A DNA stretch of 13,767 nt from a virus. Lineage: Duplodnaviria; Heunggongvirae; Uroviricota; Caudoviricetes. Shown here one piece after another: positions 1 through 13,767 of the stretch. Numbering within the stretch: the first letter of the stretch is position 1; every line of letters begins with the position of its first letter. The position numbers and the translations under genes are program-made. A model generated the notes under the pieces. It worked only from the letters and a program-made list of their open reading frames with translations, made no database searches and was not told the DNA's origin. The DNA is taken from IMG/VR virus record IMGVR_UViG_2531839532_000006; one strand, 5' to 3'.

Positions 1-77
1 GCAGAAGAATTAGCCTGAAATTAAAAGGTCTGACTCCAATTGAATATCGGAATCAGACCTATATGCCTCGTGTTTAA
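1..77 (+). CDS. 3' end of an IS3-family transposase gene (OrfB C-terminus), 5'-truncated by the window edge
   Basis: Frame beginning at nt 3 reads RRISLKLKGLTPIEYRNQTYMPRV then TAA at 75-77. The KLKGL(T/S)P.EYR ending is characteristic of IS150-group IS3-family OrfB proteins, recalled from memory. Only 25 codons are visible. Confidence 0.4.
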   Translation, partial: RRISLKLKGLTPIEYRNQTYMPRV

Positions 78-252
78 CTGTCCAACTTTTTGGGGTCAGT
101 ACAATCTGAGGCCAATTTCATGCTAGACACATGTAGGTTAGCCTCTTACGTGCCGAAAGGCACGGAGAAGCAGGCTATTGTTAACACCAAGCTGTAATGT
201 CCCCTTTGAACCATTCTAAAATGTCCCCAGACAATTCTCTGGGGGATTTTTC

Positions 253-1566: not shown

Positions 1567-2002
1567 AACCAAGATCGATTCGGCTGAGTGCATATCCATT
1601 CATAGGGTAGATTCTTAAGTCGCGTTTCTGGTGTTCATTTTCGGGTGGTTTGTTACTTGTTTTACCGGGGATATGCCAGAAACGCGCTGAGTCAGTCTGG
1701 GCGGTGCGCGTAATGAGGCGTTATGGTAAATAGCCTATGCTAATGTCCGCTAAGAGCAAGAAGCGGAAGTTGGCAGTTTTGTGGACTGTCCCCACAAAAG
1801 TGACTACAGAAATAGTTGCAATTCATAATTGATCATGGGTTGTCAGTTAAACTCGTGGCGATTTAAATAGACTAATTGGGAGTGCGTCCATTACTTATAT
1901 CTTGTAATGTTAACTATCAGAAATGATACAAAGATAATATGTCTTTAAAGAAAAGGCTGATGGCGAAAAGTGGCCCGATGAGGGCCACAATACGGCTGTC
2001 AC

Positions 2003-2335
2003 TTAGACGTAAATATCAATGGTGCCAGCGGTATTTGTATCGTCTTTTTTCTCTTCTTTTTTATCAGGCTGAACTGTCGCGTCTTCATTCTTTTTCTCTG
2101 CCTGCTGCCTTAACAACTGCTCCAGTTGAGCCCAGAGGCTTTCAATTTGCTTCTGTACCAATGCAGCCATTTCTTTTTTCTGCTGTGTCGTCATCCCCTC
2201 TTCCGATGAGATTTTCCCAAGCTTTTCAGTCAGCACCTGAATTTGTCTTGTGATTTTGGCTATTTCTGATGTTCCTTCCGGGGCGGAGTTGTTTGAAATA
2301 ACGGTTGAGGTATTTCCCTGAATTGTGACAGACAT
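2003..2335 (-). CDS. flxA: FlxA-like protein (Gln/Lys-rich, coiled-coil-like; FliA-regulated in E. coli K-12 Qin prophage)
   Basis: 110-aa ORF with RBS AAAAGGAGAAATCT before the ATG. A sigma-28 type promoter lies immediately upstream. Gene order flxA / ydfV / relB / relE / hokD matches the Qin prophage as I recall it. Confidence 0.6.
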   Translation of the reverse strand: MSVTIQGNTSTVISNNSAPEGTSEIAKITRQIQVLTEKLGKISSEEGMTTQQKKEMAALVQKQIESLWAQLEQLLRQQAEKKNEDATVQPDKKEEKKDDTNTAGTIDIYV

Positions 2336-2358
2336 AGATTTCTCCTTTTAAAAAAGCA

Positions 2359-2385
2359 CTATCGGCATGCACAAAAAAATCTTTA
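2359..2385 (-). promoter_or_regulatory. sigma-28 (FliA) class III promoter for flxA: -35 TAAAGATT, 11-nt spacer, -10 GCCGATAG (read on minus strand)
   Basis: Reverse complement of 2359-2385 gives TAAAGATT-N11-GCCGATAG, against the consensus TAAAGTTT-N11-GCCGATAA. It sits about 25 nt upstream of the flxA start codon. Confidence 0.6.
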
Positions 2386-2537
2386 ATCGTATTTCTTGTG
2401 TCATTAATTGTTTGATGTTCAGATTGTTTTCCTCGCGGGCTGGCGCGCCTCAGAAAGTAAAGCTTGTTGACAGGGGTAAACGTTCGGCAATAATTTTCTG
2501 CCGCATGCGGGTGTTGCATAAAACGTGTTACGTTCCT

Positions 2538-2843
2538 TTATCGACAGGTCAGGTCACCGCTCACCCGCCGACGAGAAAGCAACACTGACATGCTAAAGCA
2601 AAAAATAGATGAATAAGTTGAGTTGTGCATATGTAGCCTGACCGTCACAAAGTATATGGTGTCTGTACCAGTAAGATGATGGCCGGACTCTTTAAAAACG
2701 AGCTGACCTGCACAATACAGGATGGACTTAGCAATGGCTGCTCCTGGCACAAAGCGGACAGTGATCACCGTTCTTACGACTACTTTCTGACTTCCTTCGT
2801 GACTTGCCCTAAGCATGTTGTAGTGCGATACTTGTAATGACAT
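2538..2843 (-). CDS. ydfV: Hypothetical protein, ydfV-like by position and length (101 aa)
   Basis: 101-aa ORF divergent from relB. Its start codon falls inside the relBE operator region and no RBS is evident, so it may not be translated. Confidence 0.3.
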   Translation of the reverse strand: MSLQVSHYNMLRASHEGSQKVVVRTVITVRFVPGAAIAKSILYCAGQLVFKESGHHLTGTDTIYFVTVRLHMHNSTYSSIFCFSMSVLLSRRRVSGDLTCR

Positions 2844-2856
2844 TTGTAATTACAAG
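2832..2856 (+). promoter_or_regulatory. relBE operator (relO): TTGTAAT repeats including the 12-bp perfect palindrome TTGTAATTACAA
   Basis: CTTGTAATGACATTTGTAATTACAAG lies directly upstream of the relB RBS (AGAGGTG) and start codon. The palindrome at 2844-2855 is seen directly. Confidence 0.6.
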
Positions 2857-2867
2857 AGGTGTAAGAC

Positions 2868-3107
2868 ATGGGTAGCATTAACCTGCGTATTGACGATGAA
2901 CTTAAAGCGCGTTCTTACGCCGCGCTTGAAAAAATGGGTGTAACTCCTTCTGAAGCGCTTCGTCTCATGCTCGAGTATATCGCTGACAATGAACGCTTGC
3001 CGTTCAAACAGACACTCCTGAGTGATGAAGATGCTGAACTTGTGGAGATAGTGAAAGAACGGCTTCGTAATCCTAAGCCAGTACGTGTGACGCTGGATGA
3101 ACTCTGA
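2868..3107 (+). CDS. relB: RelB antitoxin (ribbon-helix-helix)
   Basis: 79-aa ORF MGSINLRIDDELKARSYAALEKMGVTPSEALRLMLEYIADNERLPF... recognised as E. coli RelB. Its stop overlaps the relE start (ATGA at 3104-3110). Confidence 0.9.
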   Translation: MGSINLRIDDELKARSYAALEKMGVTPSEALRLMLEYIADNERLPFKQTLLSDEDAELVEIVKERLRNPKPVRVTLDEL

Positions 3108-3394
3108 TGGCGTATTTTCTGGATTTTGACGAGCGGGCACTAAAGGAATGGCGAAAGCTGGGCTCGACGGTACGTGAACAGTTGAAAAAGAAGCTGGTTG
3201 AAGTACTTGAGTCACCCCGGATTGAAGCAAACAAGCTCCGTGGTATGCCTGATTGTTACAAGATTAAGCTCCGGTCTTCAGGCTATCGCCTTGTATACCA
3301 GGTTATAGACGAGAAAGTTGTCGTTTTCGTGATTTCTGTTGGGAAAAGAGAACGCTCGGAAGTATATAGCGAGGCGGTCAAACGCATTCTCTGA
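3107..3394 (+). CDS. relE: RelE mRNA-interferase toxin
   Basis: 95-aa ORF MAYFLDFDERALKEWRKLGSTVREQLKKKLVEVLESPRIEANKLRGMPDCYKIKLRSSGYRLVYQVIDEKVVVFVISVGKRERSEVYSEAVKRIL recognised as E. coli RelE, translationally coupled to relB. Confidence 0.9.
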   Translation: MAYFLDFDERALKEWRKLGSTVREQLKKKLVEVLESPRIEANKLRGMPDCYKIKLRSSGYRLVYQVIDEKVVVFVISVGKRERSEVYSEAVKRIL

Positions 3395-3465
3395 ACCAAA
3401 GCATGACATCTCTGTTTCGCACCGAAGGTGACACTTCTGCTTTGCGTTGACAGGAGAAGCAGGCT

Positions 3466-3621
3466 ATGAAGCAGCAAAAGGCGATGTTAATCGCCCTGAT
3501 CGTCATCTGTTTAACCGTCATAGTGACGGCACTGGTAACGAGGAAAGACCTCTGCGAGGTACGAATCCGAACCGGCCAGACGGAGGTCGCTGTCTTCACA
3601 GCTTACGAACCTGAGGAGTAA
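3466..3621 (+). CDS. hokD: Hok-family small membrane toxin (HokD / RelF)
   Basis: 51-aa ORF below the ORF-track cutoff, translated by hand: MKQQKAMLIALIVICLTVIVTALVTRKDLCEVRIRTGQTEVAVFTAYEPEE. RBS GGAGAAGCAGG precedes the ATG at 3466; stop TAA at 3619-3621. One TM helix plus the conserved Hok C-terminus. Confidence 0.8.
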   Translation: MKQQKAMLIALIVICLTVIVTALVTRKDLCEVRIRTGQTEVAVFTAYEPEE

Positions 3622-3689
3622 GAGACCTGGCGGGGGAGAAATCCCTCGCCACCTCTGATGTGTCAGGCATCCTCAACGCACCCGCACTT

Positions 3690-3716
3690 AACCCGCTTCG
3701 GCGGGTTTTGTTTTTT
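3690..3716 (+). terminator. Rho-independent terminator ending the relBE-hokD operon
   Basis: AACCCGC-TTCG-GCGGGTT hairpin followed by TTTGTTTTTT. Confidence 0.7.
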
Positions 3717-3788
3717 CCTGGCATTCTGGTTTACAATTCGCACGTCAGCCTGAACACCTGACACCTGCTGCGCCAGCAGAGAAAACAG

Positions 3789-4061
3789 ATGGCGCACAAA
3801 ACCAAATTTCACAATTCTGATACCGACCTTGCCATCCGGCATGAGCGGCGTTCACACGCATTTAAAACCGACTGGTACCAACACCCACCATGTACTGAAG
3901 AACAGGCCGAATGGCTGATTCATAACTACCGCAGACGTGGATATGAGTTTAGGAAAGCCCTCACCCTCGATTATCGTCACTGGATAATCTACGTCAGACT
4001 CCCTTATTCCGAACGCCCACCGCGTCCGTCCCGCACATTCCAGCAACGCATCTGGAGGTAA
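3789..4061 (+). CDS. Small basic hypothetical protein, rem-like by position
   Basis: 90-aa ORF between hokD and the DUF968 gene. Its stop TAA (4059-4061) is 1 nt before the GTG start of the next gene. Confidence 0.4.
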   Translation: MAHKTKFHNSDTDLAIRHERRSHAFKTDWYQHPPCTEEQAEWLIHNYRRRGYEFRKALTLDYRHWIIYVRLPYSERPPRPSRTFQQRIWR

Positions 4062-4062
4062 C

Positions 4063-5109
4063 GTGCGGGTATTACTTCGACCTGTTCTGGTACCGGAACT
4101 CGGGCTGGTGATCGTTAAGCCGGGCCGTGAATCCATGCCGGTATTCCACAATACCCGGGTACTGGTGGAGCCGGAACCGAAAAGCATGCGTAATCTGCCG
4201 TCCGGGGTCGTTCCTGCCGTTCGCCAGCCGCTGGTGGAAGACAAAACATTGCTGCCGTTTTTCAGTAACGCACGGGTAATTCGTGCTGCTGGTGGTGCTG
4301 GTGCATTGTCTGACTGGCTGTTGCGCAATATTAAATCCTGCCAGTGGCCACACGGCGATTATCATCACAGCGAAACCGTTATTCACCGTTATGGTACCGG
4401 CGCAATGGTGTTGTGCTGGCACTGCGACAACCAGCTGCGTGACCAGACATCCGAATCACTCGAGCAACTTGCTCATCAAAACCTGTCAGCATGGATGATT
4501 GACGTCATCGGTCACGCAATAAGCGGTACGCAGGAGCGTGAATTATCTCTGGCTGAATTATCCTGGTGGGCGGTCCGCAATCAGGTGGCGGACGCGCTAC
4601 CGGAAGCGGTATTACGTCGTTCGCTGGGGTTGCGTGCGGAAAAAATCCGCTCAATGTACCGTGAAAGCGACATCGTACCGGGAGAGCAGACCGCCACCAG
4701 CATACTGAAGCAGCGCACAAAAAATCTTGCGCCGCTGCCTCACGCCCACCAGCAAAACCCGCCACAGGAAGAGACGGTGGTCAGCATTGCCGTTGATCCT
4801 GAGTCTCCGGAATCTTTCATGAAACGACCTAAACGTCGCCGCTGGGTTAACGAGAAATACACACGCTGGGTGAAGACACAGCCGTGTGCGTGTTGTGGTA
4901 AGCCAGCCGACGATCCCCATCACCTGATTGGTCATGGTCAGGGCGGAATGGGGACAAAATCTCACGATATTTTCACGCTACCGCTGTGTCGGGAGCATCA
5001 CAACGAGCTTCATGCGGATCCTCTGGCGTTCGAAGAAAAGCATGGTTCTCAGGTTGATTTAATTTTTCGTTTTCTTGATCACGCCTTTGCAACTGGCGTG
5101 CTTGGGTAA
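4063..5109 (+). CDS. ydfU: DUF968-type prophage protein (YdfU-like) with a C-terminal Cys/His HNH-like motif
   Basis: 348-aa ORF with GTG start, SD GGAGG 4 nt upstream. C-terminus CACCGKPADDPHHLIGHGQGGMGTKSHDIFTLPLCREHHNELH looks like a zinc-binding HNH-type fold. Position upstream of rusA and Q matches Qin ydfU (349 aa) as I recall it. Confidence 0.55.
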   Translation: MRVLLRPVLVPELGLVIVKPGRESMPVFHNTRVLVEPEPKSMRNLPSGVVPAVRQPLVEDKTLLPFFSNARVIRAAGGAGALSDWLLRNIKSCQWPHGDYHHSETVIHRYGTGAMVLCWHCDNQLRDQTSESLEQLAHQNLSAWMIDVIGHAISGTQERELSLAELSWWAVRNQVADALPEAVLRRSLGLRAEKIRSMYRESDIVPGEQTATSILKQRTKNLAPLPHAHQQNPPQEETVVSIAVDPESPESFMKRPKRRRWVNEKYTRWVKTQPCACCGKPADDPHHLIGHGQGGMGTKSHDIFTLPLCREHHNELHADPLAFEEKHGSQVDLIFRFLDHAFATGVLG

Positions 5110-5121
5110 AAGAGGTGACTG

Positions 5122-5496
5122 ATGCTCATAGATTTGGTTTTACCTTACCCGCCGACGGTGAACACTTACTGGCGACGCCGTGGCAGCACATATTTTGTAT
5201 CAAAAGCCGGGGAGCGTTATCGCCGGGCAGTGGCGCTTATTGTTCGCCAGCAGCGGCTGAAATTAAGCCTGTCCGGAAGGCTGGCGATAAAGGTGATTGC
5301 AGAGCCACCGGATAAGCGTCGTCGCGACCTGGACAATATCCTGAAAGCACCGCTGGATGCGCTGACGCATGCGGGAGTGTTAATGGACGATGAGCAGTTT
5401 GATGAAATCAATATCGTTCGTGGTCAGCCAGTATCTGGAGGACCTCTGGGGGTGAAGATTTACCCCATAATGCATGAAGAGCAGGTCAAAAAATGA
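5122..5496 (+). CDS. rusA: RusA-family Holliday-junction resolvase
   Basis: 124-aa ORF with LPYPPTVNTYWRRRG and RRRDLDNILKAPLDALTHAGVLMDDEQ motifs typical of RusA. SD AGAGGTG upstream; nin-region position immediately before Q. Confidence 0.85.
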   Translation: MLIDLVLPYPPTVNTYWRRRGSTYFVSKAGERYRRAVALIVRQQRLKLSLSGRLAIKVIAEPPDKRRRDLDNILKAPLDALTHAGVLMDDEQFDEINIVRGQPVSGGPLGVKIYPIMHEEQVKK

Positions 5497-6314
5497 AACT
5501 GGAAGATTTACCGAAATACTACTCCCCAAAATCCCCTTGCCTGACCGATGCATCGGCCTCAACGTCAAAAGATGCGCTGAGTATCACTGATGTGATGGCC
5601 GCGCAGGGCATGACACAGAATCGGGCTGAGATGGGGTTTTCTGCGTTCCTGGGGAAAATGGGCATCAGTATGAATGACAGGGCGCGGGCAACAGAATTAC
5701 TGGCAGATTATGCACTCAGTCGGTGCGATCGTGTGGCGGCGTTGAGAAAACTTCCGGCAGAAATAAAACCGGTAGTGATGCGCATTATGGCTACGTATGC
5801 GTTTGAAGATTATGCCCGCAGTGCAGCGAGTAAAAAGCAGTGTCCTTGTTGCCGTGGGGAAAAATTTATTGAAAGCATAGTTTTTACAAACAAGGTCCAG
5901 TATCCGGATGGTAAGCCGCCGGTATGGGCAAAGTGTACGAAAGGTGTGTATCCGTCTTACTGGGAAGAATGGAAAAAAGTCAGGGAGGTGGTAAAAGTTG
6001 CCTGTCCGGAGTGTGGCGGAAAGGGTGAGGTTTCCACCGCCTGTAAGGATTGCCGTGGGCGTGGTGTCGCCATTCATCGTGAAGAGTCGGTAAAACGTGG
6101 TATGCCTGTTATCAGAGACTGCCAGCGTTGTGATGGTCGTGGCTGTGAAAGACTACCATCAACGGAGGCATTTAATGCCATACGCAAAGTGACGAGTGCT
6201 ATCACGCTTGATACGTGGAAAAAATCAGTGAAACGCTTTTACGATACGTTGGTGGTTCGGTTTGACATTGAAGAGGCATGGGCGGAGCGGCAGTTAAAGA
6301 GGGTAACGCGATAG
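5493..6314 (+). CDS. Q: Late-gene antiterminator Q (zinc-ribbon-rich; Q82 / QuuQ-like)
   Basis: 273-aa ORF whose start overlaps the rusA stop (ATGA). Contains CPCCRG, CPECGGKG, CKDCRGRG and CQRCDGRG repeats. A promoter plus intrinsic terminator follow immediately downstream, as expected for Q. Confidence 0.7.
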   Translation: MKLEDLPKYYSPKSPCLTDASASTSKDALSITDVMAAQGMTQNRAEMGFSAFLGKMGISMNDRARATELLADYALSRCDRVAALRKLPAEIKPVVMRIMATYAFEDYARSAASKKQCPCCRGEKFIESIVFTNKVQYPDGKPPVWAKCTKGVYPSYWEEWKKVREVVKVACPECGGKGEVSTACKDCRGRGVAIHREESVKRGMPVIRDCQRCDGRGCERLPSTEAFNAIRKVTSAITLDTWKKSVKRFYDTLVVRFDIEEAWAERQLKRVTR

Positions 6315-6319
6315 TGTTG

Positions 6320-6347
6320 TTGATTTTTCCCGAATCTGTGGTAAATT
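6320..6347 (+). promoter_or_regulatory. Candidate late promoter PR' (-35 TTGATT, 16-nt spacer, -10 TAAATT) with presumed overlapping qut site
   Basis: Promoter-like hexamers sit directly after the Q stop codon and about 50 nt upstream of a strong intrinsic terminator. Confidence 0.45.
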
Positions 6348-6395
6348 TGCTCTAACGATGGGCGTTTTATGCCTGACGTTAGAAGATTTTTTACA

Positions 6396-6418
6396 CCCCG
6401 CCGCCTGGCGGGTTTTTT
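6396..6418 (+). terminator. tR'-like intrinsic terminator downstream of PR'
   Basis: CCCGCC-GCCT-GGCGGG hairpin followed by TTTTTT. Confidence 0.65.
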
Positions 6419-6538
6419 ATGACTGAAATCGCGTCAGTACAGTAAACGCGCTGGTGGCGGTGAATACCTGTCTTTCAGCTTGCTGGCTTTTTCGACAAGA
6501 GTTATTGGTGTGTCACGTTAACCGGAAAAGGAAAAGAC

Positions 6539-6736
6539 ATGCTAAAACAGCAGGATATGACAGAAACCGCCAGAGTGGTGTTTAATGAATTAAGCGTTAC
6601 CGACCCGGCGACAGTCGGGGAGATAGCGCAGAATACTTACCTTTCACGCGAACGCTGCCAGTTAATACTGACTCAGCTGGTTATGGCGGGTCTGGCAGAC
6701 TATCAGTTCGGTTGTTACAGACGCCTTCCGCAGTGA
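6539..6736 (+). CDS. Small hypothetical protein, possibly a winged-helix DNA-binding protein
   Basis: 65-aa ORF with a good RBS (AAAGGAAAAG, about 5 nt spacing). Its stop codon lies within an intrinsic terminator hairpin. Confidence 0.45.
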   Translation: MLKQQDMTETARVVFNELSVTDPATVGEIAQNTYLSRERCQLILTQLVMAGLADYQFGCYRRLPQ

Positions 6737-6747
6737 AGGCTTTTTTA
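6723..6747 (+). terminator. Intrinsic terminator overlapping the stop codon of the 65-aa ORF
   Basis: GCCTTC-CGCAGT-GAAGGC hairpin followed by TTTTTTATTT. Confidence 0.5.
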
Positions 6748-6763
6748 TTTGTGGTAAATGGGC

Positions 6764-6794
6764 GGCTGGTGGGTGTTAGGGGCACCCACCAGCC
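6764..6794. repeat. Perfect 12-bp inverted repeat (GGCTGGTGGGTG / CACCCACCAGCC, 7-nt loop) with no U-tract
   Basis: Seen directly in the leader of the methyltransferase gene. A second copy of the PR' core TGTGGTAAAT sits just upstream at 6752-6761. Confidence 0.6.
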
Positions 6795-6886
6795 ATCTGC
6801 TCATGCGTCCGGATCACAAGCAAACCTCAGGCCCACTGCTTTGCGCAAAAGCAGAATGAGCCTATCAGAGACAGGCTTAATGATCC

Positions 6887-7936
6887 ATGCTTAATACTGT
6901 AAAAATATCCAGTTGTGAGTTAATCAACGCCGACTGCCTGGAATTTATCCGGTCGTTACCCGAAAATTCTGTTGACCTGATAGTCACGGACCCGCCGTAC
7001 TTTAAAGTGAAGCCTGAGGGCTGGGATAACCAGTGGAAGGGCGACGATGATTACCTGAAGTGGCTGGACCAGTGTCTGGCGCAGTTCTGGCGGGTGCTGA
7101 AACCTGCCGGAAGTCTTTACCTGTTCTGTGGTCATCGCCTGGCATCTGATATCGAAATCATGATGCGTGAACGCTTCAGTGTGCTGAACCATATTATCTG
7201 GGCGAAGCCGTCCGGACGCTGGAACGGATGCAACAAGGAAAGCCTGCGGGCGTATTTCCCCGCCACAGAGCGCATTCTGTTCGCGGAACATTATCAGGGG
7301 CCGTATCGTCCGAAAGATGCCGGGTATGCGGCGAAGGGCAGTGCACTGAAACAGCATGTGATGGCCCCGCTGATTTCTTACTTTCGTGATGCGCGCGCGG
7401 CCCTGGGGATAACGGCAAAACAGATTGCAGATGCCACAGGAAAGAAAAACATGGTGTCGCACTGGTTCAGTGCCAGTCAGTGGCAGCTACCGAATGAAAG
7501 CGATTATCTGAAATTACAGGCGCTGTTTGCCCGGGTGGCAGAAGAGAAGCATCGGCGTGGTGAACTGGAAAAGCTCCACCACCAGCTGGTGGATACGTAT
7601 ACCTCACTGAACCGGCAGTATGCGGAGCTGCTGAGTGAATATAAACATCTGCGGCGGTATTTTGGCGTGACGGTGCAGGTGCCGTATACCGATGTGTGGA
7701 CGCATAAACCGGTGCAGTTCTATCCCGGGAAACATCCGTGCGAAAAACCGGCAGAAATGCTGCAGCAGATAATCAGCGCAAGCAGTCGTCCGGGTGACCT
7801 GGTTGCAGATTTTTTTATGGGCTCAGGTTCAACGGTAAAAGCTGCACTGGCGCTCGGGCGTCGTGCGATTGGCGTTGAACTGGAGACCGGACGTTTTGAG
7901 CAGACAGTCAGGGAAGTTCAGGATTTAATCGTTTGA
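6887..7936 (+). CDS. Orphan DNA methyltransferase, beta-class (DPPY motif; most likely N6-adenine)
   Basis: 349-aa ORF with motif IV DLIVTDPPYF near the N-terminus and an FxGxG-type AdoMet motif DFFMGSGST near the C-terminus. No adjacent restriction endonuclease candidate. Confidence 0.85.
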   Translation: MLNTVKISSCELINADCLEFIRSLPENSVDLIVTDPPYFKVKPEGWDNQWKGDDDYLKWLDQCLAQFWRVLKPAGSLYLFCGHRLASDIEIMMRERFSVLNHIIWAKPSGRWNGCNKESLRAYFPATERILFAEHYQGPYRPKDAGYAAKGSALKQHVMAPLISYFRDARAALGITAKQIADATGKKNMVSHWFSASQWQLPNESDYLKLQALFARVAEEKHRRGELEKLHHQLVDTYTSLNRQYAELLSEYKHLRRYFGVTVQVPYTDVWTHKPVQFYPGKHPCEKPAEMLQQIISASSRPGDLVADFFMGSGSTVKAALALGRRAIGVELETGRFEQTVREVQDLIV

Positions 7937-7947
7937 AACGGATGAGA

Positions 7948-7976
7948 TTGCAGAATTAATTACGCACCATTATTAT
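7948..7976 (+). promoter_or_regulatory. Candidate sigma-70 promoter for the tRNA genes (-35 TTGCAG, 17-nt spacer, -10 TATTAT)
   Basis: Hexamers with ideal spacing end about 10 nt before the tRNA 5' end. Confidence 0.45.
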
Positions 7977-7985
7977 TCTGCTCCC

Positions 7986-8061
7986 GGCCCTTTAGCTCAG
8001 TGGTGAGAGCGAGCGACTCATAATCGCCAGGTCGCTGGTTCAAATCCAGCAAGGGCCACCA
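7986..8061 (+). tRNA. ileZ: tRNA with CAU anticodon, ileZ-like (tRNA-Ile2 after lysidine modification, or tRNA-Met)
   Basis: Hand-folded cloverleaf: acceptor GGCCCTT / AAGGGCC, D-arm GCTC...GAGC, anticodon loop CTCATAA, T-arm GCTGG-TTCAAAT-CCAGC, encoded CCA. One A-C mismatch at the top of the anticodon stem. Confidence 0.8.
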
Positions 8062-8161
8062 TCACAAACCGCCATTAGCTTATCAGGAAGAGCAGACGAC
8101 ACGATAACAGGGTTGTTGGTGCGGGGGCGGGTCCCCGATGGCGGTCCATTATCGGTATTCA

Positions 8162-8235
8162 GCGTTGTTAGCTCAGCCGGACAGAGCAATTGCCTTCTAA
8201 GCAATCGGTCACTGGTTCGAATCCAGTACAGCGCG
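8162..8235 (+). tRNA. tRNA-Arg (anticodon UCU), argO-like; 3' CCA not encoded
   Basis: Hand-folded cloverleaf: acceptor GCGTTGT / ACAGCGC (one G-U pair), D-arm GCTC...GAGC, anticodon stem ATTGC / GCAAT with loop CTTCTAA, T-arm ACTGG-TTCGAAT-CCAGT. Discriminator G is followed by CTA. Confidence 0.8.
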
Positions 8236-8375
8236 CTATATTCATTCTTCCAGATTCCTTCCGGCAGAGCCTTATACTGAAATATACCTGGCTCAGGATA
8301 TTGTTGAAAATATTTTATGTTTGTCAAAAATAAAAGTTCTGTTAAGTATTGATTGAGTGTTTGTTATACGGTCTA

Positions 8376-8702
8376 ATGGTTTTTTCAGCATTAAATATTT
8401 ATCATTCATATGGTGTGGGTAGAGTGAATATTGATGAGGCGTCGGGGTGTTTCATCCTTAGGCAGCGTATTGATATAGTCAATGCAGGACGAGCAAAGGC
8501 CTTCAGCCGTTTGACAGTTTTGTTCTGTACTCCTGATCGTCTTTCGGGAAGAGACGTTATTATTCTGAATAGTGATGCTATACAGAGGGTTTGCGATGAG
8601 TTCATGGTTGCTAATTCAGAATTATTTGCTCTTGTTCAGGAGTACAACAGAATAGCCAGGACCTGTGGTATGGATGAACTTCGGATTACTCATCTGGGGT
8701 AG
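8376..8702 (+). CDS. Hypothetical protein (first gene of the cargo island), function unknown
   Basis: 108 aa from the ATG at 8376; the ORF track extends it to a TTG at 8349. No clear RBS; AT-rich upstream region with a weak promoter-like TTGTCA at 8321. Confidence 0.35.
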   Translation: MVFSALNIYHSYGVGRVNIDEASGCFILRQRIDIVNAGRAKAFSRLTVLFCTPDRLSGRDVIILNSDAIQRVCDEFMVANSELFALVQEYNRIARTCGMDELRITHLG

Positions 8703-9093
8703 ATACATATCTGGATTATCACTTGTTACGGTAAAAAGTGATTGCTTACTGTTTTTGTGAGTGGCATTGCAGCAGCCGGATAATGTCAGTGCTGGCTGAC
8801 GGTGTGCTGGTGGCGGGTGTGGTGGTTGTTGCTTTCCCGTTGCTGAAAAAGAAAACGCCAGACTGTTAGCCGGGTATCAGTTAGCGGGAGAAATTTTTAA
8901 ATACTTCACAATTCAGGCGGTTGACTGTTGTCTGGTTTGCGGGGAGTTTGTTAAAAGAAACTGGCATGGTGAATCCCCCTGTGCGGAGGGGCAATCAGCG
9001 AGTAGGTATATGGGATAATCGCGGATTCAGGTGCTGGTACTGAATTCACCGGGAGGCACCCGGCACCATGCAATGGCACATAGCGCCACTCTC

Positions 9094-9120
9094 CAGCCCC
9101 TCTCCGGAGGGGCTGTTTAT
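9094..9120 (+). terminator. Intrinsic terminator inside the cargo island
   Basis: CAGCCCCTC-TCCG-GAGGGGCTG hairpin followed by TTTATATTGATTTT. Confidence 0.5.
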
Positions 9121-9146
9121 ATTGATTTTGTCAGATGTGAGTAAAC

Positions 9147-9180
9147 TCCTTATGGACTTTGTTGTTTTAGTCCATAAGGA
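9147..9180 (-). terminator. Perfect 12-bp stem-loop overlapping the 3' end of the minus-strand ORF (possible terminator)
   Basis: TCCTTATGGACT-(10-nt loop)-AGTCCATAAGGA. On the minus strand it is followed by GTTTACTC, only moderately U-rich. It encodes the last residues (PYGLKQQSP) of ORF 9150..9485. Confidence 0.4.
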
Positions 9181-9485
9181 CATATTTGCAGAGTGCAACG
9201 GTTATTAAAGCATTCATTCAATACGTTATCTGTATTTGTAGGACATTCCTGGCTGTTTTTGATTAAATTCCAGAATGTTTTATTGAATGGTACTACGTTG
9301 TAAATGGTTACAGGTAGCACTTTGTTATTGAGCATGATACCTGTGTGAGTCAGTGTAAATATACTTTCAGGAGGTAAGAAAGCATCCGATTGATACCAGA
9401 TTATTAATTTTATTTTACTCCATATGACTGAAAAAGATATTCCGCATGATGGCTGGATAACTGTATCAATCACAATCCACTTCAT
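9150..9485 (-). CDS. Hypothetical protein in AT-rich cargo DNA, antisense to the late operon
   Basis: 111-aa ORF with a plausible RBS AAGGAAG about 5 nt before the ATG on the minus strand, and a possible -10 TATACT upstream. No signal peptide recognised; several Cys near the C-terminus. Confidence 0.4.
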
Positions 9486-9745
9486 TTAGCTTCCTTGTTT
9501 ATGCCTTGCTGGTGATGTTCTGAAAAGTATAAATGATATTTTTGAATATAAACCATAGAGCAGAATTATTTTTCTGATGTTGTTTATTGTTTATTTAAAT
9601 GCAGGGTGGTTTATATCTCGTCTTGTAGTTTATCCATGCATATCTGCTTGATGATCAGGTTTCTATTTAAGGTATGGTTTTGTGTTTTTTCTGTGTTACA
9701 TGTCTGGTATTTTAAAGAATTATTTTTCAGATGGTGGAAAGAACC

Positions 9746-9934
9746 ATGGCATTTAAACACTATGATGTTGTCAGGGCGGCGCCGCCGTCAGATCTTGCGG
9801 AAAAGCTGACACATAAACTGAAAGAGGGCTGGCAGCCGTTTGGTAGTCCGGTGGCCATAACCCCTTATACCCTGATGCAGGCGATTGCAGCAGAAGGTGA
9901 TGTGGTGGTCAGTGGTGCAACTGAGCCCGAGTGA
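9746..9934 (+). CDS. Small hypothetical protein (62 aa), possibly a DUF1737-type small prophage protein
   Basis: MAFKHYDVVRAAPPSDLAEKLTHKLKEGWQPFGSPVAITPYTLMQAIAAEGDVVVSGATEPE with RBS-like GGTGGAAAGAA upstream. The ORF track starts it at 9731. The family assignment is a weak recollection only. Confidence 0.45.
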   Translation: MAFKHYDVVRAAPPSDLAEKLTHKLKEGWQPFGSPVAITPYTLMQAIAAEGDVVVSGATEPE

Positions 9935-10089
9935 TACTACGTCATCGTACTGGCCCGGCATTCCAGGCCATAAAAGACAGTCTGGCAGTGGGACTAAATG
10001 TACTGACGCTGACGGATATTACCAAAAATGCAACGTATGGCGTTGAGATAGAAAGTCTGGTGCTGGAGATAAATGCACCGGCATCATCA
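9931..10089 (+). CDS. Possible small ORF (52 aa, GTG start) overlapping the previous stop (GTGA)
   Basis: VILRHRTGPAFQAIKDSLAVGLNVLTLTDITKNATYGVEIESLVLEINAPASS. No ATG in frame; could be a coupled gene or the frameshifted remainder of the upstream gene. Confidence 0.2.
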
Positions 10090-10177
10090 TAAAAAGTGAG
10101 CCAGTCAAATGGAAGGTATCGTTAAACTCACCGGTAGTGTCAGTGGGTCGTCTGAGATGCCTGCATGAGTTATCAGA

Positions 10178-10207
10178 GCCATCAGTACTTAACTGGTGGC
10201 TTTTTTT
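10178..10207 (+). terminator. Strong intrinsic terminator immediately upstream of the holin gene
   Basis: GCCATCAGT-ACTTA-ACTGGTGGC hairpin (one G-U pair) followed by TTTTTTT. Confidence 0.6.
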
Positions 10208-10242
10208 ATTGTTGTCAGCTTCCGGATAACGGGAGACGGGGT

Positions 10243-10458
10243 ATGTACCAGATGGAAAAAATCACAACAGGTGTGTCATACACCACGTCAGCGGTGGGAA
10301 CGGGCTACTGGTTCCTGCAGTTGCTGGACAGGGTTTCCCCGTCTCAGTGGGCGGCAATAGGCGTGCTGGGGAGTCTGCTGTTTGGGCTGCTGACATATCT
10401 GACTAACCTGTATTTCAAAATCAGAGAGGACCGTCGTAAGGCGGCACGGGGAGAGTAA
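10243..10458 (+). CDS. S: Class II holin, phage-21 S21-type pinholin, with dual-start motif (Met1 / Met4)
   Basis: 71 aa [79 protein letters not shown] sits 7 nt upstream. The longer ORF-track version from 10165 is an unsupported N-terminal extension. Confidence 0.85.
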
Positions 10459-10462
10459 TTCA

Positions 10463-10777
10463 ATGACTCAAAACTATGAACTGATTGTGAAAGGGATCCG
10501 CAATTTTGAGAATAAAGTTACGGTAACTTTAGCGTTACGGGACAAAAAACGCTTTGACGGTGAAATTTTTGACCTGGACATCTCGCTGGACCGTGTTGAA
10601 GGTGCCGCGCTGGAGTTTTATGAGGCAGCAGCCAGAAGGAGCATCAGACAGGTCTTCCTGGATGTTGCTGCCGGGTTATGTGAAGGGGACGAGCTGTTGC
10701 CAGAAACGCGCCCCTGTTCAGAGGCGCGGTATACCATAAAAATTAACAGTTCTGATAACTCGATTACGGGTTGTTAG
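10463..10777 (+). CDS. ydfR: YdfR-like hypothetical protein between holin and endolysin
   Basis: 104-aa ORF starting 5 nt after the holin stop. Position and length match ydfR of the Qin lysis cassette as I recall it. Confidence 0.5.
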   Translation: MTQNYELIVKGIRNFENKVTVTLALRDKKRFDGEIFDLDISLDRVEGAALEFYEAAARRSIRQVFLDVAAGLCEGDELLPETRPCSEARYTIKINSSDNSITGC

Positions 10778-10832
10778 CTTTTTGCAGTTGGCTTTCCAGT
10801 ATCTTTCATTGGTAGCATCCTGATAAATATCC

Positions 10833-11366
10833 ATGAGCGCAAAAATCAAATACGGCCTGTCAGCTGCTGTTCTGGCGCTGATTGCTGCAGGCGCGTCTGC
10901 TCCTCAGATACTTGACCAGTTTCTGGACGAAAAAGAGGGTAACCACACAACGGCATACCGCGATGGTTCCGGCAACTGGACCATCTGTCGGGGGGCCACG
11001 ATGGTGGATGGAAAACCCGTTTTTCCCGGTATGAAACTGTCGAAGGAAAAATGCGACCAGGTCAACGCCATTGAGCGTGATAAGGCGCTGGCATGGGTGG
11101 AGAAAAACATCAAAGTGCCATTGAGCGAACCCCAGAAAGCGGGGATCGCGTCATTCTGTCCGTACAACATTGGTCCCGGTAAGTGTTTCCCGTCGACGTT
11201 TTATAAACGAATTAATGCAGGTGATCACAGGGGAGCGTGTGAGGCGATTCGCTGGTGGATTAAGGACGGTGGCAGAGACTGCCGTATTCGTTCAAACAAT
11301 TGCTACGGTCAGGTATCCCGTCGTGACCAGGAGAGCGCGCTGGCGTGCTGGGGTATCGACAGATAA
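10833..11366 (+). CDS. R: SAR endolysin (T4-lysozyme-like muramidase with N-terminal signal-anchor-release domain)
   Basis: 177-aa ORF with a Gly/Ala-rich weakly hydrophobic N-terminus (YGLSAAVLALIAAGASAP) and an E-8aa-D-5aa-T catalytic spacing (DEKEGNHTTAYRDGSGNWT). Partner of the pinholin. Confidence 0.9.
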   Translation: MSAKIKYGLSAAVLALIAAGASAPQILDQFLDEKEGNHTTAYRDGSGNWTICRGATMVDGKPVFPGMKLSKEKCDQVNAIERDKALAWVEKNIKVPLSEPQKAGIASFCPYNIGPGKCFPSTFYKRINAGDHRGACEAIRWWIKDGGRDCRIRSNNCYGQVSRRDQESALACWGIDR

Positions 11367-11456
11367 GCAGAATATTTTGCTGAAAAATAAGGCATGGCCA
11401 CGCGGGCGGATAACATGAAATCCTGCGAAGTGGCGAAACGTAAGTGAATAAAAGTA

Positions 11457-11490
11457 AAAACCCCGTTTGTTGGCACCAAGCGGGGTTTTG
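11457..11490 (+). terminator. Intrinsic terminator-like hairpin between endolysin and spanin genes
   Basis: AAAACCCCG-(15-nt loop)-CGGGGTTTT followed by GTGTTT. Confidence 0.5.
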
Positions 11491-11525
11491 TGTTTCCTGA
11501 CTCCGGAAAAGTCAAAGGAGAAAGT

Positions 11526-11663
11526 GTGTTTGATTTTAGCAAACTGATTCGGGAGATTCGAGTGATGGCTGAAAAATTATCCACCTGGAAGTTCATTCTT
11601 ATCTGGCTGGTGTTTGTGATTATGGCCTCCGGTTATTTCATCGGTCAGATACGCTGGTGGTGA
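11526..11663 (+). CDS. Small single-pass membrane protein (45 aa), unannotated, translationally coupled to Rz
   Basis: Hand-translated: GTG at 11526 with RBS AAAGGAG 5 nt upstream (ATG 11565 is an alternative start). Product [45 protein letters not shown]. Stop TGA at 11661-11663 is 1 nt before the Rz ATG. Confidence 0.4.
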
Positions 11664-11664
11664 A

Positions 11665-12129
11665 ATGAACCGCGTACTGTGCGTGGTCATCATTGCCCTG
11701 CTGGTGGCCTGTGGTGCGCTTAGTCTGGGGCTGAATCATTACCGTGATAACGCCATTACCTACAAAGCCCAGCGCGACAAAAATGTCAGAGAACTGAAGC
11801 TGGCGAACGCGGCAATTACTGACATGCAGATGCGTCAGCGTGATGTTGCTGCGCTCGATGCAAAATACACGAAGGAGTTAGCTGATGCGAAAGCTGAAAA
11901 TGATGCTCTGCGTGATGATGTTGCCGCTGGTCGTCGTCGGTTGCACATCAAAGCAGTCTGTCAGTCAGTGCGTGAAGCCACCACCGCCTCCGGCGTGGAT
12001 AATGCAGCCTCCCCCCGACTGGCAGACACCGCTGAACGGGATTATTTCACCCTCAGAGCGCGACTGATAATAATGCAAAAACAACTTGAAGGGGCACAGC
12101 TATACATTCGAGAGCAATGCCTCAGATAA
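11665..12129 (+). CDS. Rz: Rz i-spanin (inner-membrane spanin subunit)
   Basis: 154-aa ORF with an N-terminal TM helix ([18 protein letters not shown]) and coiled-coil periplasmic domain. Follows the endolysin and contains an embedded +1-frame ORF. Confidence 0.85.
11885..12067 (+). CDS. Rz1: Rz1 o-spanin (outer-membrane lipoprotein) embedded in Rz in the +1 frame
   Basis: 60-aa ORF with lipobox LPLVVVGC and a proline-rich mature region ([18 protein letters not shown]), entirely inside Rz. Confidence 0.75.
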
Positions 12130-12436
12130 AAACCGGCCAAGGATAATCCGCTGAAGATTCGCCGGTGGCTAAAGTGTGCCAAGAGTTCAATTTACGCAAT
12201 TACTCCTGTCGATGCTATGCACCGTCTTTGTGAAGTCAATGGATACCTGATTTATTTCTGTGCGCTGTATCGTCGCTGTACTCTTGCATTAATTATGACT
12301 GTAGCCTGACGGGGAACTCCTTCTGCACAAGTGTGGGGGAATAATCAAAAACGATGCACACCGGGGTTACCGGGTACACATATTTCATCATGCCAGCGAG
12401 TCCGGTTCTGGTACGGAAGAAACCGGACGTTATGAT

Positions 12437-12715
12437 TTAGTGCGGAAATATTTGTGTAGTGTTCTGAATGTTCTCAGTAAAGAGTAATGAATTATCAAAG
12501 GTATAGTAATATCTTTTGTTTTCGTGGATATTTGTAATCCATCTGAAAACCCCTGCTGTAGCAAGATTTTTCCTGTATTCGTAAAATGATAACTCTCCTG
12601 ATTTGAATCCTTTTAAGGTGGCTTCTATAAGGCATTTATTTTTTGAAAATCTTACATTTACAACCTTACCCTGCTCTCCAATGACTAGTCTAAAAACTAG
12701 TATTAAGACTATCAC
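12437..12715 (-). CDS. Hypothetical protein in AT-rich DNA after the lysis cassette (bor-position moron)
   Basis: 92-aa ORF with a GTG start and no clear RBS. The start codon lies inside a 20-bp perfect palindrome; a stem-loop at 12400-12428 follows the stop. Confidence 0.3.
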
Positions 12716-12729
12716 TTATTTAAGTGATA
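12710..12729. promoter_or_regulatory. 20-bp perfect palindrome TATCACTTATTTAAGTGATA (operator-like)
   Basis: Seen directly. The TATCAC half-sites resemble lambda-type operator half-sites. It overlaps the start of ORF 12437..12715. Confidence 0.5.
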
Positions 12730-12932
12730 TTGGTTGTCTGGAGATTCAGGGGGCCAGTCTAATAGTAAATGTAATGTGAGACATTGTGACGTTTTAGCTC
12801 AGAATAAAACCATTGATAGTTTAAATCGTTTCGAACTTTATCAAATATTTGTTTAAAAATGACTACCTGATCCATAGATAAACCTTCCATGTGATATGAG
12901 GGGGCGTAGTCTGCACGATTATCTAAATTGCT

Positions 12933-13166
12933 TCAATCTGGTCTGACCTGTTTTCTGAGCAATTCAGTAATGTCACTCTTTTCTTTGTTTGCTTCAGAAG
13001 AAACTCTTTTTTCTGAGCACAGTCTCCGGCGGCAGGCTTCAATGACCCAGGCTGAGAAATTCCCGGACCCTTTTTGAACAAGAGCGATGTTAATTTGTTC
13101 AATCATTTGGTTAGGAAAGCGGATGTTGCGGGTTGTTGTTCTGCGGGTTCTGTTCTTCGTTGACAT
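12933..13166 (-). CDS. Small basic protein, possibly DUF3950-type / ribbon-helix-helix-like
   Basis: 77-aa ORF MSTKNRTRRTTTRNIRFPNQMIEQINIALVQKGSGNFSAWVIEACRRRL... with a basic N-terminus and a short beta-alpha-alpha-like core. Family recalled from memory. Confidence 0.45.
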   Translation of the reverse strand: MSTKNRTRRTTTRNIRFPNQMIEQINIALVQKGSGNFSAWVIEACRRRLCSEKRVSSEANKEKSDITELLRKQVRPD

Positions 13167-13299
13167 GAGGTTGCCCCGTATTCAGTGTCGCTGATTTGTA
13201 TTGTCTGAAGTTGTTTTTACGTTAAGTTGATGCAGATCAATTAATACGATACCTGCGTCATAATTGATTATTTGACGTGGTTTGATGGCCTCCACGCAC

Positions 13300-13509
13300 G
13301 TTGTGATATGTAGATGATAATCATTATCACTTTACGGGTCCTTTCCGGTGATCCGACAGGTTACGGGGCGGCGACCTCGCGGGTTTTCGCTATTTATGAA
13401 AATTTTCCGGTTTAAGGTGTTTCCGTTCTTCTTCGTCGTAACTTAATGTTTTTATTTAAAATACCCCCTGAAAAGAAAGGAAACGACAGGTGCTGAAAGC
13501 GGGCTTTTT
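13300..13509. other. Lambda-type cos site: cosQ region, cosN (12-nt cohesive end GGGCGGCGACCT at 13365-13376), cosB R3 and R2; R1 displaced
   Basis: 13200-13364 matches the lambda right end as I remember it (...GGTGATCCGACAGGTTACG). 13365-13509 matches the lambda left end (GGGCGGCGACCTCGCGGGTTTTCGCTATTTATGAAAATTTTCCGGTTTAAGG...AAAGGAAACGACAGGTGCTGAAAGCG) with a few substitutions, and similarity stops at 13509. Confidence 0.75.
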
Positions 13510-13767
13510 GTAAGCGACTCGTCAGAACCGTATTGATATTTACTGAGAGCTCAGATCAACTTTCCAGGGCAACAGATCGCGTACCCGGTTTGCCGGCCAG
13601 TCCTGGATATGTTCAATGACGTAACGCAGCCACTTTTCTGGCTCCACATTGTTCAGACGGCATGTGCCGATCAGCGAGTACAACACCGCCGCATGTTCAC
13701 CACCGCTGTCGGAACCCGCGAACATCCAGTTTTTCCGGCCTACGGCCACTCCCCGTAAGGCGTTCTC
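13510..13767 (-). mobile_element. IS66-family insertion sequence, terminal part (GTAAGCG terminus), extending beyond the window
   Basis: Similarity to lambda cos ends at 13509. 13510 begins GTAAGCGACTCG, the terminal motif typical of IS66-family ends, and an IS66-type transposase C-terminus is encoded about 30 bp inside. Confidence 0.7.
13540..13767 (-). CDS. IS66-family transposase (TnpC), C-terminal portion; 5' part lies beyond the window
   Basis: Minus-strand frame is open to the window edge and reads ENALRGVAVGRKNWMFAGSDSGGEHAAVLYSLIGTCRLNNVEPEKWLRYVIEHIQDWPANRVRDLLPWKVDLSSQ, the conserved IS66 TnpC C-terminus. Confidence 0.75.
   Translation of the reverse strand, partial: ENALRGVAVGRKNWMFAGSDSGGEHAAVLYSLIGTCRLNNVEPEKWLRYVIEHIQDWPANRVRDLLPWKVDLSSQ

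What the first reader, a model, noticed from the sequence alone, without database searches (positions are those of the whole stretch)
13200..13767. IS66-family element inserted inside cosB, separating cosN from the terminase side
The sequence matches the lambda cos region (right-end tail, 12-nt cohesive end GGGCGGCGACCT, R3 GTTTCCGTTCTTCTT, R2 AAAGGAAACGACAGG) up to position 13509. It then switches to an IS66-type end (GTAAGCG...) with a TnpC C-terminus on the minus strand. R1 and the terminase small-subunit gene therefore lie at least one IS length away. This prophage probably cannot be packaged normally and is effectively locked in.
Basis: partly seen in the sequence, partly recalled or inferred. 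Interest (0 to 1): 0.6.

Follow-up and report, generated by a model that had tools for sequence, protein, structure and literature searches.

The report
Insertion sequence splitting a dead prophage's cos
A common jumping gene (ISCro1, IS66 family) has landed in the DNA-packaging signal of a lambda-like prophage, but that prophage is the long-dead Qin-type remnant found in most E. coli, so the insertion is one more scar and not what disabled the phage.

Summary
Window 13004-13509 is about 99% identical to the phage lambda right end, cosN and cosB through R3, I1 and R2. At 13510 the sequence switches to the tnpC-proximal end of an IS66-family element (GTAAGCG...). The TnpC C-terminus lies on the minus strand.

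Two complete E. coli genomes carry the identical junction and show what lies beyond the window:
- The element is a 2,699-bp ISCro1-family IS with tnpA, tnpB and tnpC.
- It is flanked by an 8-bp target duplication, GGCTTTTT (lambda bp 138-145).
- It sits in the spacer between R2 and R1. R1 and the Nu1 homologue follow immediately after it.
- An uninterrupted allele in strain ML35 proves a simple transposition.

The functional reading is only partly supported. The host element is a Qin-type cryptic prophage in the ydfJ region. It has only fragments of the large terminase, portal, protease and tail genes, and no capsid gene, so it could not make particles before the IS arrived. Published work also treats R1 as a non-essential accessory site and R3-I1-R2 as the terminase docking unit, and that unit is left intact here.

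ISCro1 shows almost no target preference across 109 other insertion sites. The event looks like chance, is rare (2 of 5,426 genomes) and is ordinary.

The parts
12933..13166 (-). ynfO (YlcI/YnfO family), the last prophage gene before the lambda-like right end
   Evidence: 77-aa ORF. Annotated ynfO at the matching position in L001, L002 and L124.
13004..13365 (+). Homologue of the lambda right chromosome end. It includes the region that holds cosQ and the left half of cosN.
   Evidence: 97.8% identical to NC_001416 48141-48502. The last ~256 bp are identical in the global alignment.
13366..13377 (+). cosN 12-nt cohesive-end sequence GGGCGGCGACCT
   Evidence: Read directly. Identical to lambda bp 1-12.
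13415..13430 (+). cosB R3 (lambda bp 50-65)
   Evidence: Alignment to lambda: one C>T change at lambda bp 53, with bp 55-63 unchanged. R3 extent is taken from PMC9026076.
13431..13473 (+). Interval between R3 and R2 that holds the IHF site I1 in lambda
   Evidence: Assigned by position from the alignment to lambda. Two substitutions (lambda bp 70, 99). IHF binding was not tested.
13474..13489 (+). cosB R2 (AGAAAGGAAACGACAG, lambda bp 109-124)
   Evidence: Identical to lambda.
13502..13509 (+). Left copy of the 8-bp target-site duplication GGCTTTTT (lambda bp 138-145)
   Evidence: The same octamer follows the other IS end in L001. It occurs once in the uninterrupted ML35 allele.
13510..13767 (-). 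tnpC-proximal end of an ISCro1-family IS66 element. It begins with the terminal inverted repeat GTAAGCGACTCG..., and TnpC C-terminal codons lie at 13540-13767. The window stops inside the element.
   Evidence: Pfam DDE_Tnp_IS66_C at E = 3.3e-17. 100% identical to L001 20311-20568 inside the annotated ISCro1-family transposase. The full element is 2,699 bp.

Best explanation
A copy of ISCro1 transposed into the 26-bp spacer between R2 and R1 of the lambda-type cosB of a Qin-type cryptic prophage. ISCro1 belongs to the IS66 family; this copy is 2,699 bp and carries tnpA, tnpB and the DDE transposase gene tnpC, all transcribed opposite to the phage late genes. The insertion duplicated the 8-bp target GGCTTTTT.

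What the insertion did (shown): cosQ-cosN-R3-I1-R2 remain contiguous. R1, the Nu1 homologue and the remains of the late operon are pushed 2.7 kb away.

Why it probably does not matter (inferred):
- The prophage had already lost a working terminase, portal, capsid and tail, so the insertion is most likely a selectively neutral hit in decaying DNA.
- It reflects the activity of a multi-copy IS with almost no target preference.
- It is not the cause of prophage immobility.

Its only plausible consequence concerns use of this cos region by an infecting lambda-like phage. Such a phage could use it as a cleavage site or as a recombination donor. It would then meet a cosB lacking the adjacent accessory site R1, or would acquire 2.7 kb of IS.
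For: - Junction and cos identity.
- Complete element with both ends, imperfect inverted repeats starting GTAA(G/C)CG, identical 8-bp direct repeats, and exact colinearity with lambda once the IS and one repeat are removed.
- Uninterrupted allele with a single GGCTTTTT in the same Qin context (ML35).
- IS66 gene set confirmed by Pfam (DDE_Tnp_IS66, zf-IS66, LZ_Tnp_IS66, DDE_Tnp_IS66_C, TnpB_IS66, HTH_Tnp_1).
- Prophage decay. The Nu1 homologue diverges from lambda about 11 codons before its stop and runs into a 140-aa gpA nuclease fragment. Portal, protease, G, H, J and tail-fibre genes are flagged incomplete. The chromosomal context matches K-12 Qin (relBE, hokD, flxA, ydfV, pinQ, tfaQ, ydfK, truncated ydfJ)..
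- Rarity. The split allele is in 2 of 5,426 complete genomes. A continuous cosN-cosB-Nu1 start is in 3,996.
- No hot spot. 109 distinct ISCro1 flanks from metagenome contigs and fetched genomes show at most 0.34 bits per position, and none of those from metagenome contigs lies in a cos region.
- R1 is an accessory site (PMC4669245), and R3-I1-R2 is the TerS docking unit (PMC9026076, PMC4856287).
Against: - The window ends 258 bp into the IS. Everything to the right is inferred from two other genomes, and these differ from the window in their central 9 kb. The window's own strain could differ downstream.
- No experiment shows that the split cos is or is not cleavable.
- Neutrality is inferred, not measured.
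- A second, independent ISCro1 insertion lies only 65 bp away in another prophage (EC130). That is a mild hint of regional preference, which a sample of 109 sites cannot fully exclude.
Confidence: 0.9

Rival explanations
1. The IS insertion is the lesion that disables packaging of an otherwise competent lambdoid prophage and locks it into the chromosome.
For: The IS does split cosB and separates Nu1 and the late operon from cosN and from late transcription. Integrase and excisionase genes of the element are annotated as intact.
Against: - In both genomes with this junction the structural region is a string of fragments, and the terminase is destroyed by deletions unrelated to the IS.
- Uninterrupted alleles of the same prophage (ML35) are equally or more degraded: nohA is followed directly by a J fragment.
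- R1 is described as non-essential (PMC4669245).
Confidence: 0.04
2. The junction is not a simple insertion. It is the product of recombination between two ISCro1 copies (an inversion or deletion) or an assembly chimera, so the cos half and the R1/Nu1 half were not originally neighbours.
For: The genomes carry several ISCro1 copies (8-10 matching places per record). The window itself shows another inter-prophage rearrangement, so this lineage is recombinationally active.
Against: - Identical 8-bp direct repeats flank the element. Removing the IS plus one repeat restores, base for base, the ML35 allele and colinearity with lambda.
- The same junction occurs in two independently sequenced complete genomes, from Mozambique and Saudi Arabia.
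Confidence: 0.02
3. The cos/Nu1 start region is a preferred or selected target for ISCro1. For example, disrupting chromosomal cos sites might protect the cell from cleavage by terminases of resident or infecting lambda-like phages.
For: Two independent ISCro1 insertions lie within 65 bp of each other in different prophages. They have the same orientation, and both targets contain a GC-flanked A5/T5 run (GGCTTTTT here; CAAAAAGC in Nu1 codons 5-7 of EC130).
Against: - Only 3 of 5,426 genomes have this IS end near a lambda-type cos, against 3,996 with a continuous site.
- Among 109 distinct insertion sites only 4 targets contain A5/T5. The weak preference is for a central W-T-A-W, which GGCTTTTT does not fit.
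- The critical R3-I1-R2 unit is left intact, so the insertion would be a poor way to inactivate cos.
Confidence: 0.04

Closest known systems
Phage lambda cos (cosQ-cosN-cosB with R3, I1, R2, R1) as carried by the Qin cryptic prophage of E. coli K-12 (cos-nohA region)
   Same: Same order and near-identical sequence from the right end through R2 (about 99% to lambda). It is 100% identical to the Qin allele of many E. coli genomes. The chromosomal context is the same: relBE, hokD, ynfO, nohA-type Nu1, tfaQ, pinQ, ydfJ.
   Different: R1 and the Nu1 homologue are displaced by 2,707 bp. One base (lambda bp 137) is missing in all Qin alleles examined. In the window the central Q/lysis module is not the Qin one.
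ISCro1 (IS66 family), first named in Citrobacter rodentium and known as a multi-copy IS in E. coli, for example in the afa regulatory region of ST131 (PMC8764528)
   Same: RefSeq names the transposase 'IS66-like element ISCro1 family'. It has the tnpA-tnpB-tnpC organisation, GTAAGCG-type inverted repeats and an 8-bp duplication. The 258 bp in the window are 100% identical to copies in other genomes.
   Different: Nothing in the element itself; only the insertion site is new. The unit measured here is 2,699 bp, and a metagenome contig of exactly that length matches it. PMC8764528 quotes 2,824 bp for its copy. I could not compare with the ISfinder reference.
IS-disrupted defective lambdoid prophages in general, and defective-prophage cos regions acting as recombination partners for infecting lambda (PMC3945230)
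   Same: A resident, non-inducible lambdoid remnant that accumulates IS elements. IS150, IS2, an ISNCY fragment and ISCro1 all lie in or next to this one.
   Different: I found no published description of an IS placed precisely between R2 and R1 of cosB. My literature search was limited to the held library.

Membership tests
lambda-type cos site | 12-nt 5' cohesive-end sequence GGGCGGCGACCT within a cosN matching lambda | tested here: met
   Window 13366-13377. The flanking cosN bases are identical to lambda.
lambda-type cos site | cosB with R3, an IHF-site interval and R2 at lambda spacing from cosN | tested here: met
   R3 at 13415-13430 and R2 at 13474-13489, with the same spacing as lambda bp 50-65 and 109-124. 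There are no indels between cosN and R2.
lambda-type cos site | R1 immediately after R2 (lambda bp 151-166), followed by the Nu1 start | tested here: not met
   In the window an IS begins at 13510. In L001 and L002, R1 (CTGTCGTTTCCTTTCT, here TTGTCG...) and the Nu1 ATG lie directly after the other IS end, 2,707 bp away.
lambda-type cos site | Cleavage by terminase and use for packaging | not testable with these tools
   This needs in vitro cos cleavage or helper-phage assays.
IS66 family insertion sequence (ISCro1) | DDE transposase TnpC with IS66 domains | tested here: met
   The window fragment hits DDE_Tnp_IS66_C at E = 3.3e-17. The full 523-aa protein in L001 hits DDE_Tnp_IS66 (E = 3.8e-103), zf-IS66 and LZ_Tnp_IS66.
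IS66 family insertion sequence (ISCro1) | Accessory genes tnpA and tnpB upstream of tnpC | tested here: met
   In L001, 22279-22956 hits HTH_Tnp_1 and 21932-22279 hits TnpB_IS66 at E = 4.7e-40. These genes lie outside the window.
IS66 family insertion sequence (ISCro1) | Imperfect terminal inverted repeats beginning GTAAGCG | tested here: met
   The tnpC-proximal end is GTAAGCGACTCGTCAGAACCGT and the tnpA-proximal end is GTAACCGGCTCATTTAAACCGT, about 16 of 22 positions matching.
IS66 family insertion sequence (ISCro1) | 8-bp target-site duplication | tested here: met
   GGCTTTTT on both sides, and a single copy in the empty ML35 allele. The EC130 copy has CAAAAAGC on both sides.
Qin-type cryptic prophage | Location in the ydfJ region with the relBE, hokD, flxA, ydfV ... 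ynfO, nohA, tfaQ, pinQ, ydfK gene set, and loss of morphogenetic genes | tested here: met
   RefSeq annotation of L001, L002 and L124. Window 1-3715 and 12671-13767 are at least 99.8% identical to L001. The central 9.2 kb of the window is not Qin-like.

The most novel reading that the evidence does not exclude
The left half-site (cosQ-cosN-I2-R3-I1-R2) may still be a working terminase substrate. If so, a lambda-specificity helper phage would nick the chromosome here and begin packaging straight into ISCro1. Alternatively it could recombine at the cos-stimulated break and pick up the IS. Either way the split cos would become an entry point for an IS66 element into viable lambdoid phages. It would also be a natural test of how far R1 can be moved from R2.
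Probability: 0.25. Interest if true: 0.25.

Novelty: already known. Interest (0 to 1): 0.1.

Why it matters
It matters little. The case is a clean, fully resolved example of IS accumulation in a cryptic prophage, with the target duplication, empty site and full element all identified. It also corrects the tempting inference that the IS immobilised the phage.

Two minor points of value:
- It is a natural R2/R1-separated cosB allele that could be used to probe the accessory role of R1.
- It adds about 109 ISCro1 insertion sites showing that this IS has only a weak central W-T-A-W target bias.

Tried and rejected
- Source genome. I looked for the window's own genome to read past position 13767.
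  - No complete E. coli genome covers at least 80% of the whole window.
  - The GTDB representative scan found only two ISCro1-bearing contigs in 'Clostridiales' MAGs, which are probably binning contaminants.
  - An exact-protein look-up of the hybrid ydfO ORF found nothing.
  - A look-up of the 43-aa ydfO N-terminal fragment returned two short contigs. One of them (L125) reaches past cos and has an uninterrupted cosB.
- Hot-spot idea. I tested whether ISCro1 targets cos: 109 distinct flanks gave no consensus resembling the cos target, so I rejected it.
- Rearrangement or artefact. I rejected this because of the identical direct repeats, the exact empty-site reconstruction and two independent assemblies.
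- Failed calls. One script failed because the lambda loci were not yet in their own files, and I reran it with pasted sequence.

Full report
**What is in the sequence**

- The cohesive-end sequence GGGCGGCGACCT is at 13366-13377.
- GTTTCCGTTCTTCTT lies within R3 (13415-13430).
- AGAAAGGAAACGACAG (R2) is at 13474-13489.
- At 13510 the sequence changes abruptly to GTAAGCGACTCG...

Megablast of 13200-13767 against the phage collection aligns bases 1-311 of the query (window 13200-13510) to lambda, HK629, HK630 and DE3. Identity is 98.7% and E = 3e-155, and nothing aligns beyond that point.

I then made a global alignment of the joined lambda ends (NC_001416) against the locus with the IS removed.
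- The last ~256 bp before cosN are identical.
- Between cosN and the break there are three substitutions (lambda bp 53, 70, 99) and one missing base (bp 137).
- Colinearity then continues through R1, the Nu1 start codon and about 500 bp of Nu1.

The cos homology is therefore real and far beyond chance.

**The IS**

The minus-strand translation of 13540-13767 matches Pfam DDE_Tnp_IS66_C (E = 3.3e-17) and the last 24 positions of DDE_Tnp_IS66.

Only two of 5,426 complete E. coli genomes contain the whole 568-bp query, both at 100% identity. They are strain 300709 (human stool, Mozambique; L001) and WS4437A-1 (human stool, Saudi Arabia; L002). In both, RefSeq annotates an 'IS66-like element ISCro1 family transposase' followed by tnpB and tnpA on the minus strand. 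A 'terminase small subunit' comes immediately afterwards. Pfam confirms the full IS66 domain set for TnpC, TnpB_IS66 for TnpB and an HTH transposase domain for TnpA.

From the sequence, the element runs from L001 20311 to 23009, which is 2,699 bp. Its ends are imperfect inverted repeats, GTAAGCGACTCGTCAGAACCGT and GTAACCGGCTCATTTAAACCGT. It is flanked on both sides by GGCTTTTT. A metagenome-derived contig of exactly 2,699 bp, a collapsed repeat, independently fits that unit length.

**Where exactly it sits**

GGCTTTTT corresponds to lambda bp 138-145. That is the spacer between R2 (bp 109-124) and R1 (bp 151-166). The other IS end is followed directly by ggcctTtgtcgtttcctttctctgtttttgtccgtggaatgaacaATGgaagtc, which is R1 and the Nu1 start.

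Strain ML35 carries the same prophage with an uninterrupted site. It has one copy of GGCTTTTT, with R2, R1 and nohA contiguous. It is otherwise base-for-base identical to the window's left flank and to L001's right flank. This is the signature of a single simple transposition. It rules out an IS-IS rearrangement or an assembly chimera.

**What the host element is**

The gene tables of L001, L002 and L124 show the Qin cryptic prophage neighbourhood familiar from E. coli K-12 (my own knowledge of K-12, matched here by the annotated gene names). The genes are flxA, ydfV, relBE, hokD, rem, ydfU, ydfT(Q), cspF, cspB, essD, ydfR, rrrQ, rzpQ, cspI, ynfN, gnsB, ydfO, ynfO, cos, a Nu1 homologue (nohA in ML35), tfaQ, pinQ, ydfK and a truncated ydfJ.

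To the right of the IS in 300709 and WS4437A-1 the late region is wreckage.
- The Nu1 homologue follows lambda until about 11 codons before its stop. It then diverges into a reading frame that overlaps a 140-aa fragment matching only the gpA nuclease domain.
- W is present.
- Portal, S49 protease, G, a piece following T, J and the tail fibre are all flagged incomplete.
- There is no D, E, Z, U, V, M, L, K or I.

To the left there is no immunity or replication region, only IS150 and an ISNCY transposase fragment.

This prophage could not package or build anything before ISCro1 arrived. The uninterrupted ML35 version is even more reduced, with nohA followed directly by a J fragment. The statement that the IS 'locks in' the prophage is therefore not supported.

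**What the insertion does to cos**

The Feiss laboratory papers in the held library describe the site as follows.
- cosB consists of R3, I1 (IHF), R2 and R1.
- IHF bends I1 so that R3 and R2 face each other and dock the dimeric TerS DNA-binding domain (PMC4856287, PMC9026076).
- R3 is the critical site, and the cosN-cosB spacing is crucial (PMC9026076).
- R1 is explicitly described as playing a non-essential, accessory role (PMC4669245).

The insertion leaves cosQ, cosN, the cosN-R3 spacing, R3, I1 and R2 untouched. It removes only R1 from the neighbourhood. On published knowledge the site may therefore remain cleavable by a lambda-specificity terminase supplied in trans. That is an inference and needs the cleavage assay listed under next steps.

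The IS genes point opposite to the late operon. Any Q-dependent late transcript would have to cross 2.7 kb of antisense IS before reaching the Nu1 remnant. This has no consequence, given what lies downstream.

Defective-prophage cos regions are known recombination partners for infecting lambda, and cos cleavage stimulates such exchange (PMC3945230). The only conceivable biological effect is on that traffic.

**Is cos a target of choice?**

A third genome (EC130, pig, China) has an independent ISCro1 copy only 65 bp further right in a different lambdoid prophage. That copy has the same orientation, lies within Nu1 codons 5-7 and has the duplication CAAAAAGC. This made a hot spot worth testing.

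I scanned metagenome contigs for the IS end and retrieved 115 stretches. Together with the genomes, they gave 109 distinct 20-bp flanks.
- None of those from metagenome contigs lies in a cos region.
- Information content never exceeds 0.34 bits per position.
- The weak signal is a central W-T-A-W in the 8-bp target, which GGCTTTTT does not fit.
- Only 4 of 109 targets contain an A5/T5 run.

A continuous cosN-cosB-Nu1 start is present in 3,996 of 5,426 complete genomes, typically twice per genome. Two hits in this abundant target by a multi-copy, nearly random IS are unremarkable.

**Limits**

The window stops 258 bp into the IS. The window is also not identical to either reference genome. Its positions 1-3715 and 12671-13767 match Qin of strain 300709 at 99.8% or better. 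Positions 3452-12673 match a second, ompW/yciE-adjacent prophage of the same strain at 99.97%.

The downstream structure in the window's own strain is therefore inferred. The inference rests on a 1.1-kb flank identical to the references apart from two mismatches, on the same IS2 scar in ydfO, and on the same IS150 end at window 1-102.

**Verdict**

The functional interpretation is not supported. The feature is an ordinary IS insertion in a long-dead prophage. The kinds of element involved are already known and are already annotated in RefSeq. Interest is low.

Noticed in passing
window 3452-12673: The central 9.2 kb carries a hokD-proximal region, a DUF968 gene, rusA, a Q-type antiterminator, a DNA methyltransferase, two tRNAs, iraM, holin, lysozyme, Rz and a ydfO homologue. 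It is 99.97% identical to a different prophage (ompW/yciE locus, L003 8061-17282) of strain 300709. It is only about 81-87% identical, in patches, to the Qin module that 300709, WS4437A-1 and ML35 carry at this place. This looks like a recent patch replacement between two co-resident prophages. The left crossover lies in the shared 264-bp hokD region (3452-3715).
   Followed up: partly
window 12671-12761: The right end of that patch is not a homologous crossover. It joins the ydfO homologue to the last ~91 bp of an IS3-family element that I recognise as IS2 (recalled, not checked against a reference). The join sits at a 3-bp overlap (CTG), just outside the IS's first start codon. In 300709 and WS4437A-1 the full IS interrupts ydfO at this spot. 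The window therefore keeps only a stub of it, which implies an illegitimate deletion or join inside the IS.
   Followed up: partly
window 1-102 and 253-1566: The window begins inside the end of an IS150 copy. That copy is present in 300709 and absent from WS4437A-1. It then carries a 437-aa ORF that RefSeq annotates in the related genomes as a truncated ISNCY-family transposase. Both ends of the window lie inside repeats, as expected for a short-read contig bounded by IS copies.
   Followed up: no
L006 6260-8959 (E. coli EC130, NZ_CP182198): An independent ISCro1 insertion lies 65 bp to the right of the one studied. It is within codons 5-7 of the Nu1 gene of a different, also degraded, lambdoid prophage (iss/bor-type). 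It has the same orientation and the 8-bp duplication CAAAAAGC.
   Followed up: yes
L009-L123 (metagenome contigs) plus L001, L002, L006, L007: 109 distinct ISCro1 insertion flanks show only a weak preference for W-T-A-W at positions 3-6 of the 8-bp target (up to 0.34 bits per position). The target GC content is 40%.
   Followed up: partly
L001 23063-24027: The Nu1 homologue downstream of the IS is annotated as 210 aa. It matches lambda Nu1 to about codon 170. A deletion then joins it to sequence from the gpA nuclease domain, so both terminase subunits are destroyed independently of the IS.
   Followed up: partly
window 7986-8236 and 8935-9124: Two phage-borne tRNA genes: a CAT anticodon, called Met by ARAGORN and Ile in RefSeq, and Arg-TCT. 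There is also a full-length match to the sRNA family STnc100 (132 bits) in the imported late region.
   Followed up: no
L007, L008 (GTDB 'Clostridiales bacterium' MAG contigs SFEB01000082, SFGJ01000083): The only species-representative genomes with an exact ISCro1 end are two Clostridiales MAGs. One of the two contigs is exactly the 2,699-bp IS. This is most likely enterobacterial contamination of the bins.
   Followed up: no
L125 (Logan ERR2538140 contig, 2,235 bp): A 97.5%-identical Qin-like variant whose contig ends at the same ydfO position as the IS2 insertion, but whose cosB is uninterrupted. This is consistent with the ydfO insertion being older or more widespread than the ISCro1 insertion.
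   Followed up: partly
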